Of a stretch of DNA of 44,198 bases, positions 27,365 through 28,447 are shown in pieces. The translations under genes were made by a program, and so were the position numbers. Origin of the DNA: a virus (taxonomy: Duplodnaviria; Heunggongvirae; Uroviricota; Caudoviricetes); IMG/VR virus record IMGVR_UViG_2541047823_000013; one strand, written 5' to 3'. The notes beneath the pieces are model-generated. The model made no database searches, was not told the origin of the DNA, and saw only the letters and a list, made by a program, of their open reading frames with translations. The first letter of the stretch is position 1, and every line of letters begins with the position of its first letter.

Positions 27365-28447
27365 ATGAAAAAATTAACAGTGGCAATTTCTGCTGTAGCT
27401 GCATCAGTACTGATGGCGATGTCTGCTCAGGCAGCTGAAATTTATAATAAAGACAGTAACAAGCTGGATCTATACGGGAAAGTTAATGCCAAGCACTACT
27501 TCTCCTCTAATGATGCAGATGATGGTGATACTACTTATGCTCGTCTTGGCTTCAAAGGTGAAACCCAAATCAACGATCAACTGACTGGTTTCGGTCAGTG
27601 GGAATATGACTTCAAAGGCAACCGTGCTGAATCTCAAGGTTCTTCCAAAGACAACACCCGTCTTGCATTTGCAGGCCTGAAATTTGGTGATTACGGCTCA
27701 ATCGATTACGGCCGTAACTTCGGTGTAGCATACGACATCGGTGCGTGGACTGACGTCCTGCCAGAATTCGGTGGTGACACTTGGACTCAAACCGACGTGT
27801 TCATGACTCAACGTGCAACTGGTGTTGCAACTTATCGTAACAACGACTTCTTTGGTCTGGTCGATGGCCTGAACTTTGCTGCTCAGTATCAGGGTAAAAA
27901 TGACCGCACTGACGTAGCTGAAGCCAATGGTGATGGTTTCGGTTTCTCCACTACTTATGAGTATGAAGGATTCGGCGTGGGTGCAACCTATGCTAAATCA
28001 GATCGCACTGACGGTCAGGTCGCCTATGGTAAGAGCAAATTCAATGCCTCCGGCAAAAATGCGGAAGTATGGGCTGCAGGCCTGAAATATGATGCGAACA
28101 ATATCTATCTGGCTACCACATATTCTGAAACTCAGAATATGACCGTTTTTGGTAATAACCATATTGCAAACAAAGCACAAAACTTTGAAGCAGTAGCACA
28201 ATATCAGTTTGACTTCGGTCTGCGCCCATCTGTTGCTTACCTTCAGTCAAAAGGTAAAGACCTTGGTGTTCATGGTGACCGAGACTTAGTCAAGTATGTC
28301 GATGTCGGTGCTACTTACTACTTTAATAAAAACATGTCCACTTTTGTTGATTACAAAATCAACTTAATTGACGATAGTAAGTTTACCAAAACAGCTGGTA
28401 TTGATACCGACGACATCGTCGCTGTAGGTCTGGTTTATCAGTTCTAA
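27365..28447 (+). CDS. nmpC: OmpC-family general porin (NmpC/Lc-type prophage porin)
   Basis: Track ORF 27305..28447 trimmed to [23 protein letters not shown] signal peptide; [17 protein letters not shown]..., ...[22 protein letters not shown]...VGLVYQF; preceded by ~450 bp of AT-rich upstream DNA. Confidence 0.95.

What the first reader, a model, noticed from the sequence alone, without database searches (positions are those of the whole stretch)
27365..28447. OmpC-family porin encoded on the prophage and transcribed against the late operon
A complete 360-aa general porin lies between Q and the tRNAs on the opposite strand, with its own ~450-bp AT-rich upstream region and terminators on both sides. 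This allows expression in the lysogen independent of late transcription, as for the Lc/NmpC porins of lambdoid phages, and can change permeability and phage-receptor profile.
Basis: partly seen in the sequence, partly recalled or inferred. Interest (0 to 1): 0.45.

Follow-up and report, generated by a model that had tools for sequence, protein, structure and literature searches.

The report
Known prophage porin (NmpC/Lc type)

Summary
Window 27365..28447 (+) encodes a complete 360-aa porin (Pfam Porin_1 E=1.5e-150). It lies between a QuuD-type Q gene (28635..29033, -) and a tRNA pair.

It is the NmpC/Lc lysogenic-conversion porin:
- 90% identical to NmpC of K-12 prophage DLP12, 89-90% to Lc of phage PA-2, 98.3% to the porin of inducible phages such as Perceval.
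- 66% identical to chromosomal OmpC.
- The tR'-to-Q cassette occurs in 2464 of 5426 complete E. coli genomes.

Published RNA-seq shows the Perceval copy expressed in the LF82 lysogen. The 3' spacer is 94% identical to the DLP12 region said to give the IpeX sRNA, which lowers OmpC/OmpF.

Two points change the reading.
1. The late promoter most likely lies left of the porin (26969-26996, -). That stretch is homologous to the VT1-Sakai pR', which there abuts Q. The porin therefore fills the Q/pR' gap, outside the late transcript, and the left-hand "terminator" belongs to pR'.
2. A 3063-bp tandem duplication (21759-24821 = 24822-27884), found in no complete E. coli genome, ends inside the porin. 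It creates a truncated second copy (24302..24850).

Verdict: already known; low interest.

The parts
27365..28447 (+). Porin gene (nmpC/lc type): 360 aa, of which 23 are signal peptide and 337 are mature protein
   Evidence: ORF. Porin_1 full length, E=1.5e-150. NCBIfam OmpC subfamily, 522 bits against a cut-off of 484. Identity: 90% to NmpC of K-12, 89-90% to Lc of PA-2, 66% to OmpC, 61% to OmpF. 359/360 identical to WP_000737259.1 of strain AF57.
27365..27433 (+). Signal peptide [23 protein letters not shown], cleaved before AEIYNK
   Evidence: Identical to the 23-aa sig_peptide annotated for lc in J02580 (alignment). Solved porin chains start at query residue 24.
26997..27364 (+). AT-rich upstream region of the porin (27.2% G+C), holding its still unmapped promoter and the 5' UTR
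   Evidence: Composition. 87% identical to the K-12 nmpC upstream region, with a block that is almost invariant from about 27265 to the ATG. 97.7% identical to Perceval. No + strand sigma-70 match of 9/12 or better; only weaker candidates, such as TGaAATAAT at 27284-27292.
27239..27254 (.). CRP-like site (7 of 10 consensus positions), lying in the stretch that corresponds to a CRP site annotated upstream of lc in PA-2
   Evidence: Scan. PA-2 misc_binding features at 1363-1383 and 1067-1087 (sequence). The window has TCAAA where PA-2 has TCACA.
28448..28608 (+). Porin 3' UTR, the homologue of the DLP12 IpeX sRNA region, ending in the porin's intrinsic terminator (28585-28608)
   Evidence: 94% identical to the K-12 nmpC-quuD spacer. 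Folds to -54.5 kcal/mol, z=-6.2. Terminator scan. [quoted passage not shown]
28459..28498 (-). Long hairpin followed by a T5 run on the - strand; candidate terminator for transcription leaving Q towards the porin
   Evidence: Sequence. Fold of the - strand. Conserved in K-12. Its function is inferred.
28635..29033 (-). Late antiterminator Q (QuuD type), convergent with the porin
   Evidence: PF06530, E=7.7e-54. phrog_79. 81% identical to VT1-Sakai Q and 85% to PhiR40_1 Q. Annotated quuD in relatives.
26969..26996 (-). Late promoter pR' homologue: TTTACG, 16-nt spacer, TATGCT
   Evidence: Aligns with the 'putative late promoter' of VT1-Sakai, TTTACG-16-TATCAT. In VT1-Sakai, a start 7 nt after that -10 lies 258 nt from the end of the second annotated terminator. 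That equals the mapped length of the pR' RNA, StxS-L (PMC7547250).
26913..26938 (-). First hairpin plus T7 run of the pR' leader (tR'-like); left edge of the Q-porin-pR' module
   Evidence: Terminator scan. Fold. Homologous to 'putative rho-independent terminator for pR' transcript' of VT1-Sakai. Homology with K-12, PA-2 and most E. coli genomes starts exactly here, at query position 16 = window 26915.
24302..24850 (+). Truncated duplicate of the porin gene: 173 porin codons plus 9 foreign codons, with an identical upstream region
   Evidence: Porin_1 profile positions 1-145 only. Translation ends ...[13 protein letters not shown]. Produced by the tandem duplication.
21759..27884 (.). Two copies of a 3063-bp tandem duplication (21759-24821 and 24822-27884), differing at one base (24592 A, 27655 C)
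   Evidence: Offset comparison. No complete E. coli genome covers 80% or more of a 400-bp query across the junction (0 of 5426). The closest relative, AF57, has a single copy.
27653..27655 (+). Private codon change AAA to AAC (K97N in the precursor), at the column of OmpF mature K80
   Evidence: Differs from AF57 and from the truncated copy. None of 1532 genomes that carry this 61-mer has the C. Alignment column.
26576..26914 (-). C-terminal remnant of a DNA methylase, directly after the pR' hairpin (context)
   Evidence: PF01555 profile positions 135-220/221 only. Annotated as a partial pseudogene in AF57. Full length in Stx2a_1447 and PhiR40_1.

Best explanation
The gene is a lysogenic-conversion cassette (a 'moron') of the NmpC/Lc type. 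It occupies the gap between the late antiterminator gene Q and the late promoter pR' of a lambdoid prophage, and points towards Q.

Shown:
- The gene encodes an intact OmpC-subfamily general diffusion porin. It has a 23-aa signal peptide, the loop-3 PEFGG motif, the conserved basic and acidic pore residues, and a C-terminal Phe.
- The Q-porin-pR' module is shared with DLP12, PA-2, Perceval and about 45% of complete E. coli genomes.

Inferred from the anatomy and from published work on near-identical copies:
- The porin is transcribed in the lysogen from its own promoter in the 370-bp AT-rich region.
- That promoter probably depends on CRP and responds to temperature. This rests on the PA-2 annotation, the CFT073 data, and low G+C of the kind H-NS binds.
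- The transcript ends at the + strand terminator at 28585-28608.
- Its 161-nt 3' UTR is the homologue of IpeX. Once released from the porin mRNA, IpeX lowers the host porins OmpC and OmpF.
- The lysogen therefore partly swaps its own major porins for the phage porin. That changes permeability and removes or alters receptors for other phages.
- The cassette is insulated from phage transcription. A hairpin with a T-run on the - strand (28459-28498) faces transcription leaving Q. pR' fires away from the porin.

Differences from other alleles are concentrated in the segments that carry insertions or deletions among OmpC, OmpF and NmpC. In the solved structures these are the external loops L4 to L8, as expected for a surface protein exposed to phages and to the immune system.
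For: Porin identity.

NmpC/Lc membership:
- 329/365 identical to reconstructed K-12 NmpC.
- 325/365 identical to PA-2 Lc.
- 98.3% identical to the porins of phages ev017, ev207, 2G7b, Perceval and PhiR11_1.
- Same order (Q, then a convergent porin) in DLP12, Perceval and AF57.
- In PA-2, whose record stops short of Q, the lysis genes follow the pR'-like region on the opposite strand from lc.

Prevalence: 3335 of 5426 genomes have a match, and 2464 cover 80% or more of the 1.8-kb cassette.

Expression in a lysogen: the Perceval NmpC is 10-fold above background in LF82 (PMC9928086). nmpC is up-regulated at 37 C in RNA and protein in CFT073 (PMC12890032).

IpeX:
- The spacer is 94% identical to K-12.
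- It is strongly structured, z=-6.2.
- Reviews describe IpeX as made from the porin transcript and as repressing OmpC/OmpF.

Position of pR':
- Window 26908-27000 matches the annotated promoter, qut site and first terminator of VT1-Sakai.
- The Q proteins are 81% identical.
- The 258-nt arithmetic agrees with the mapped StxS-L RNA.
- No promoter-like match on the - strand lies between Q and the porin.
- Related phages hold other opposite-strand cargo in the same Q/pR' gap.
- Homology with other phages and genomes starts exactly at the pR' hairpin.

Foreign composition: 39.6% G+C for the cassette against 51.2% for the window.
Against: - No sigma-70 consensus match of 9/12 or better was found on the + strand upstream of the porin. 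The promoter is therefore not located; only weak candidates exist.
- The CRP-like site has one more mismatch than its PA-2 counterpart.
- The exact ends of IpeX could not be checked. The primary paper (Castillo-Keller et al. 2006) is not held, the RefSeq K-12 record lists no ipeX feature, and Rfam gave no hit in the spacer.
- The reviews disagree on whether IpeX works by base pairing and needs Hfq.
- In Sakai the pR' RNA ends at a second terminator, 258 nt downstream. The first hairpin, the only one conserved here, may therefore not be an efficient stop.
- The intact copy carries a private K97N change at a pore-lining column. Its effect is unknown.
- NmpC alleles are silent in laboratory strains because of IS insertions.
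Confidence: 0.8

Rival explanations
1. One reading: the late promoter sits directly after Q, in the 187-bp spacer. The porin is then embedded in the late operon and is crossed antisense by Q-modified polymerase during lytic growth. On this view the - strand hairpin at 28459-28498 is tR'.
For: In lambda, and in VT1-Sakai, pR' abuts Q (PMC7547250). A TTTACT hexamer follows the Q stop codon, and a hairpin with a T5 run on the - strand lies about 140 nt further on.
Against: - No -10 element follows that hexamer at a 16-18 nt spacing, and the scan found no - strand promoter between 28500 and 28634.
- The similarity between the post-Q sequence and pR' is no better than chance: 263 of 300 shuffles score at least as well.
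- A full homologue of the VT1-Sakai promoter, qut site and hairpin lies at 26913-26996.
- Homology with DLP12 and PA-2 extends exactly to that hairpin.
Confidence: 0.1
2. The gene is a quiescent or impaired porin gene that contributes nothing in this strain. It may be silenced by H-NS on the AT-rich upstream DNA, or damaged by the private K97N change.
For: - nmpC is called quiescent in E. coli K-12 and B, and is broken by IS5 or IS1 there.
- The upstream region has 27% G+C.
- K97N is unique among 1532 genomes.
Against: - The ORF is intact, with every conserved porin feature.
- OmpC has Trp at the K97 column, so that position tolerates change.
- Copies of this porin type are expressed in LF82 and CFT073.
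Confidence: 0.08
3. The tandem duplication that ends inside the porin gene, together with the single base difference, is an assembly or sequencing artefact. The true genome would then hold one ordinary cassette.
For: The junction is in none of 5426 complete genomes. The nearest relative has one copy. The copies differ at only 1 of 3063 bases.
Against: The junction is a clean illegitimate join with 1 nt of shared sequence, and it lies inside two different genes. The two copies are not identical, which a simple collapse or expansion artefact would not produce by itself. No read data are available to decide.
Confidence: 0.25

Closest known systems
NmpC of cryptic prophage DLP12 (E. coli K-12, b0553)
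   Same: 90% protein identity after removing IS5. Same convergent position next to quuD. Upstream region 87% identical and 3' spacer 94% identical. The pR' hairpin sits at the same module edge.
   Different: The K-12 copy is interrupted by IS5B near its 3' end; the window copy is intact. The window allele is 5 residues shorter, and most of its differences lie in segments corresponding to external loops L4 to L8. To the left of the module, K-12 has essD, whereas the window has a methylase remnant, tRNAs and a TolA-like gene.
Lc (protein 2) of lambdoid phage PA-2 (GenBank J02580)
   Same: 89-90% identity and an identical signal peptide. The record annotates CRP sites upstream, and the S/R/Rz lysis genes follow the pR' region on the other strand. 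It is the classical case of a phage porin made in lysogens (Schnaitman et al. 1975, cited in PMC8065619).
   Different: Different loop alleles. The proximal CRP-like site has one more mismatch in the window.
NmpC porin of phage Perceval (prophage of AIEC strain LF82)
   Same: 98.3% protein identity. Distal part of the upstream region 97.7% identical. The order Q, porin, then holin S matches. Reported as a moron expressed 10-fold above background in the lysogen (PMC9928086).
   Different: In Perceval the lysis genes follow pR' directly. The window prophage has a Stx-phage-like late region instead: methylase remnant, tRNAs, TolA-like gene, esterase.
Chromosomal OmpC (E. coli) and OmpD (Salmonella)
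   Same: Same fold and the same NCBIfam OmpC subfamily. Aligns end to end with solved OmpC structures. The literature treats nmpC as the E. coli counterpart of ompD and as a RybB target (PMC3333887).
   Different: Only 66% identical to K-12 OmpC. Not at the ompC-micF locus, but in a prophage.

Membership tests
Enterobacterial general diffusion porins (Pfam Porin_1, PF00267; OmpC/OmpF/PhoE) | Full-length match to the family profile | tested here: met
   Residues 29-360 on profile 1-337/337, E=1.5e-150.
Enterobacterial general diffusion porins (Pfam Porin_1, PF00267; OmpC/OmpF/PhoE) | Cleavable N-terminal signal peptide and C-terminal Phe (outer-membrane assembly signal) | tested here: met
   [23 protein letters not shown], cleaved before AEIYNK, identical to the annotated Lc signal peptide. 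The protein ends ...GLVYQF.
Enterobacterial general diffusion porins (Pfam Porin_1, PF00267; OmpC/OmpF/PhoE) | Loop-3 PEFGG motif and the conserved charged residues of the pore constriction | tested here: met
   [10 protein letters not shown] is invariant in alignment A4, as are K39, R60 and R150; R99 is shared with OmpC and OmpF. The exception is K97N, at the column of OmpF mature K80, where OmpC has W.
Enterobacterial general diffusion porins (Pfam Porin_1, PF00267; OmpC/OmpF/PhoE) | 16-stranded trimeric beta-barrel | not tested
   Supported only by homology. Mature residues 24-360 align with chain residues 1-343 of OmpC 2xe2 (E=1.9e-137), and identity to K-12 OmpC is 66%. No structure was predicted.
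NmpC/Lc porins of lambdoid prophages | Close sequence relationship to NmpC (DLP12) and Lc (PA-2) | tested here: met
   329/365 and 325/365 identical; 98.3% to porins of sequenced inducible phages.
NmpC/Lc porins of lambdoid prophages | Located next to, and convergent with, a QuuD-type Q gene, with shared flanking non-coding DNA | tested here: met
   Q at 28635..29033 (-). The spacer is 94% and the upstream region 87% identical to DLP12. Relatives are annotated ompC plus quuD.
NmpC/Lc porins of lambdoid prophages | Made in the lysogen, independently of late transcription | not testable with these tools
   Published for the porin of prophage Perceval in LF82, 98.3% identical in protein (PMC9928086; identity).
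OmpC proper (chromosomal osmoporin; NCBIfam NF007841 subfamily) | Score above the curated subfamily cut-off | tested here: met
   522.4 bits against a cut-off of 484. PhoE (502 against 599) and OmpF (474 against 583) are not met.
OmpC proper (chromosomal osmoporin; NCBIfam NF007841 subfamily) | Orthologous locus: next to micF and rcsD on the chromosome | tested here: not met
   K-12 ompC lies beside micF and rcsD. The window gene lies between phage Q and pR', and is only 66% identical. It is a paralogue within the subfamily.
Phage moron (extra gene with its own signals, inserted between phage genes) | Absent from the same site in related phages, with foreign base composition | tested here: met
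   In VT1-Sakai, Q abuts pR'. Other cargo fills the gap in Stx2a_1447 and PhiR40_1. The cassette has 39.6% G+C against 51.2% for the window.
Phage moron (extra gene with its own signals, inserted between phage genes) | Own terminator | tested here: met
   GGGGCGTTTCCACGCCCC followed by ATTTTT at 28585-28608 on the + strand.
Phage moron (extra gene with its own signals, inserted between phage genes) | Own promoter | tested here: inconclusive
   No + strand match of 9/12 or better; weak candidates only. The block 27265-27364 is almost invariant against K-12.
IpeX sRNA (DLP12) | Lies directly 3' of the phage porin stop codon, about 167 nt, homologous to the DLP12 sequence | tested here: met
   From the stop codon to the end of the terminator T-run is 161 nt (28448-28608). 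94% identical to K-12. Structured, z=-6.2. The description of IpeX comes from reviews.
IpeX sRNA (DLP12) | Lowers OmpC and OmpF | not testable with these tools
   Literature only.

The most novel reading that the evidence does not exclude
The gap between Q and pR' may be a dedicated, insulated cargo slot in this group of lambdoid phages. Different opposite-strand genes sit there in different phages.

In this case the convergent layout could also couple induction to the host porin balance. Read-through from Q during lytic growth would be antisense to the IpeX 3' UTR and would cancel its repression of OmpC/OmpF.

Separately, two private changes in the window could be a recent adaptive remodelling of the cassette in this isolate rather than noise. 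They are the 3-kb duplication, which gives a second pR', a second tRNA pair and a truncated porin, and K97N at a pore-lining column.
Probability: 0.1. Interest if true: 0.4.

Novelty: already known. Interest (0 to 1): 0.12.

Why it matters
Phage-borne porins of this type alter outer-membrane permeability, antibiotic entry and phage receptors in nearly half of sequenced E. coli. This has been known since the 1970s-80s (Lc, NmpC), and this copy adds no new principle.

The useful results are corrections:
- The gene sits outside the late transcript, in the Q/pR' gap.
- Its 3' UTR is the IpeX-type regulator.
- This particular genome carries a private duplication that truncates a second copy.

Anyone annotating such prophages should not place pR' next to Q by default.

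Tried and rejected
1. Rfam (E up to 1) over 21000-30000 gave nothing in the porin-Q spacer or at pR'. IpeX and StxS could therefore not be confirmed with a covariance model.

2. I looked for a late promoter in the Q-porin spacer. The scan found none, and the only hexamer there (TTTACT) has no -10 partner.

3. I tested whether the cassette is flanked by a duplicated target, comparing the post-Q sequence with pR'. The best local alignment scores 13, and 263 of 300 shuffles do as well. Rejected.

4. A near-consensus - strand promoter-like site (ATGACA-17-TATAAT, 27156-27128) first looked like pR'. I set it aside because its -35 is not conserved in K-12 or PA-2, and because the true VT1-Sakai homologue lies at 26969-26996.

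5. The primary papers on nmpC, lc and IpeX are not held (PMC107294, PMC218982, PMC1347279). Statements about them rest on reviews and on GenBank annotation.

6. A search for 'phage PA-2' together with OmpC found nothing. The statement that PA-2 uses OmpC as its receptor comes from my own knowledge only and is not used as evidence.

7. The cargo ORFs of Stx2a_1447 and PhiR40_1 have no Pfam family.

8. No structure prediction or large protein-database search was run. The identity to solved and named proteins made them unnecessary.

Full report
**1. Observation**

Window 27365..28447 (+) is an open reading frame of 360 codons plus a stop. It matches Pfam Porin_1 over the whole profile (E=1.5e-150). 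It passes the curated cut-off of the NCBIfam 'porin OmpC' subfamily (522 against 484 bits) but not those of PhoE or OmpF. Mature residues 24-360 align end to end with solved OmpC, OmpK36, PhoE and OmpF chains; the best is OmpC 2xe2 at E=1.9e-137.

To the right lies a Q antiterminator gene on the other strand (28635..29033, PF06530). To the left, also on the - strand, lie a C-terminal remnant of a DNA methylase (26576..26914) and two tRNA genes (26374-26535). The 450 bp upstream are AT-rich.

Hairpins with T-runs exist at 26913-26938 (- strand), 28459-28498 (- strand) and 28585-28608 (+ strand).

**2. Identity**

The gene is the NmpC/Lc porin of lambdoid prophages.
- After removing IS5B from the K-12 DLP12 nmpC pseudogene, the reconstructed 365-aa NmpC is 329/365 identical to the window protein.
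- Lc of phage PA-2 (J02580) is 325/365 identical, and its annotated 23-aa signal peptide is the same.
- Chromosomal OmpC is 66% identical and OmpF 61%.
- The porins of sequenced inducible phages (ev017, ev207, 2G7b, Perceval, PhiR11_1 and others) are 98.3% identical.
- The protein of strain AF57 (WP_000737259.1) differs at one residue.

The 1.8-kb stretch from the left hairpin to the 3' end of Q has a match in 3335 of 5426 complete E. coli genomes. In 2464 of them the match covers at least 80% of the query, and it is annotated 'ompC' plus 'quuD'.

Most of the differences from NmpC and Lc cluster in the segments that carry insertions or deletions among OmpC, OmpF and NmpC. From the solved structures (established knowledge), these are external loops L4 to L8.

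**3. Expression**

[quoted passage not shown] The window's 1.8-kb cassette is 98.3% identical to the LF82 chromosome.
- In CFT073, two nmpC copies are preferentially expressed at 37 C over 23 C, at both RNA and protein level (PMC12890032).
- nmpC mRNA is reported as a RybB target (PMC3333887).
- The PA-2 record annotates two CRP sites upstream of lc. The window keeps a weaker version of the proximal one.

I could not locate the promoter. No + strand match of 9/12 or better exists. The block from about 27265 to the ATG is almost invariant between the window and K-12, and it holds a TGaAATAAT candidate.

**4. The 3' UTR**

The 187-bp spacer between the porin and Q is 94% identical to the DLP12 spacer. 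The + strand from the stop codon to the terminator T-run (28448-28608, 161 nt) folds far better than shuffled sequence (-54.5 kcal/mol, z=-6.2).

[quoted passage not shown] I therefore read this segment as the IpeX homologue.

The primary paper is not held and Rfam has no matching family here, so the exact ends are inferred.

**5. Where the late promoter is**

This is the main correction. A search with window 26900-27175 showed that positions 26908-27000 match Stx phages such as H-19B and VT1-Sakai, at the place annotated 'promoter | terminator | Q'.

In VT1-Sakai the Q stop codon is followed at once by these elements:
- the 'putative late promoter' (TTTACG, 16 nt, TATCAT);
- a 'putative Q-utilization' site;
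- a 'putative rho-independent terminator for pR' transcript'.

The window's - strand reads TTTACG, 16 nt, TATGCT (26996-26969), followed by the homologous leader and the hairpin AAACCCGCCGTCGAGCGGGTTTTTTT (26938-26913). The window's Q is 81% identical to VT1-Sakai Q, so a cognate promoter is expected.

The VT1-Sakai annotation agrees with experiment. A start 7 nt after its -10 lies 258 nt from the end of the second annotated terminator. That is the length of the pR' RNA (StxS-L) mapped by dRNA-seq and Term-seq in Sakai (PMC7547250).

Three further points agree.
- No - strand promoter-like site lies between Q and the porin.
- Homology with K-12, PA-2 and most genomes begins exactly at this hairpin, window 26915. 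Q, porin and pR' thus travel as one module.
- Related phages carry other opposite-strand genes between Q and the same element: two ORFs in Stx2a_1447 (Q 47% identical) and one in PhiR40_1 (Q 85% identical).

So the porin cassette (about 26997-28634, 39.6% G+C against 51.2% for the window) fills the Q/pR' gap. Late transcripts start to its left and run away from it.

One caveat: in Sakai the mapped RNA passes the first hairpin and ends at a second terminator. That second terminator has no counterpart here, so the efficiency of the 26913-26938 hairpin as tR' is unknown.

**6. The duplication**

An offset comparison shows that 21759-24821 and 24822-27884 are tandem copies of 3063 bp with one mismatch. 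The right end of the second copy lies inside the porin gene, at codon 173. The left end lies inside the SASA-type esterase gene.

The junction (24821/24822) joins porin codon 173 to the antisense of esterase codon 86, with 1 nt of shared sequence.

Consequences:
- a truncated porin gene with an identical upstream region (24302..24850, 182 aa, lacking the C-terminal half and the terminal Phe);
- a second pR'-like promoter and hairpin (23906-23933, 23850-23875);
- second copies of the methylase remnant, the tRNA pair, a TolA-domain gene and two sRNA homologues.

No complete E. coli genome has the junction, and the closest relative has a single copy.

The one mismatch is 27655 C in the intact gene. 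It changes AAA to AAC (K97N) at the column of OmpF mature K80, where NmpC and Lc have K and OmpC has W. None of the 1532 genomes that carry this 61-mer has the C.

I cannot tell from the sequence whether these two private features are real or artefacts.

**7. Verdict**

The finding is a correct recognition of a well-known element, with a wrong picture of its transcriptional setting. The function is already established for the family. Nothing in this copy departs from it except the private duplication and a single substitution, both unverified. Interest is low.

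Noticed in passing
window 21759-24821 and 24822-27884: A 3063-bp tandem duplication with one mismatch. The junction joins the porin interior to the esterase interior and is absent from 5426 complete E. coli genomes. It duplicates the pR'-like promoter, the tRNA pair, a TolA-domain gene and two sRNA homologues, and it leaves an 86-aa esterase N-terminal fragment (24820..25080, -).
   Followed up: partly
window 27655 (and 24592): The intact porin has a private C (K97N) at the column of OmpF K80. The truncated copy and all 1532 genomes with this segment have A.
   Followed up: partly
window 25667..26095 and 22604..23032 (-): A 142-aa protein with a lipoprotein-type signal (LTTGC) and a TolA C-terminal domain (PF06519, E=3.8e-23). 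It sits where Stx phages carry stx. It could be a periplasmic decoy for colicins or phages that use TolA; this was not examined.
   Followed up: no
window 22226-22434 and 25289-25497 (-); 22170-22222 and 25233-25285 (+): Rfam hits to the sRNA STnc100 (132 bits) and to the anti-sRNA AsxR (63 bits, at its gathering score), between the TolA-like gene and the esterase. Both are duplicated.
   Followed up: no
window 26913-26996 (-), second copy 23850-23933: The pR' leader is homologous to the 5' part of the StxS-L RNA of Sakai Stx phages. A short, constitutively made pR' RNA may therefore exist here too. In Sakai the mapped RNA ends at a second terminator that has no counterpart in the window.
   Followed up: partly
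window 26460-26535 and 23397-23472 (-): ARAGORN calls this gene tRNA-Met (CAT). The same gene is annotated tRNA-Ile in AF57, and the gene at the corresponding position in Stx2a_1447 is annotated ileZ, so it is probably a lysidine-modified tRNA-Ile2.
   Followed up: no
window 26576..26914 (-): Only the C-terminal 112 aa of a DNA methylase remain, starting right after the pR' hairpin. Stx2a_1447 and PhiR40_1 have a small ORF and the full methylase there, so this lineage has a deletion at that point.
   Followed up: partly
window 27128-27156 (-): Near-consensus promoter-like site (ATGACA, 17 nt, TATAAT; 11 of 12) pointing away from the porin. Its -35 is not conserved in K-12 or PA-2, so it may be a chance match in AT-rich DNA or a lineage-specific promoter upstream of pR'.
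   Followed up: partly
L010 (E. coli O111:H8 08-4455) 3001-3370: The porin upstream region plus the first 40 nt of the gene (about 81% identical) survive alone in a decayed DLP12-like remnant beside ybcM, ybcL and emrE, with no annotation.
   Followed up: partly
L005 2642-4205 and L006 2656-3102: Other phages hold unannotated opposite-strand ORFs with no Pfam family in the same Q/pR' gap. They are candidates for further lysogenic-conversion cargo.
   Followed up: partly
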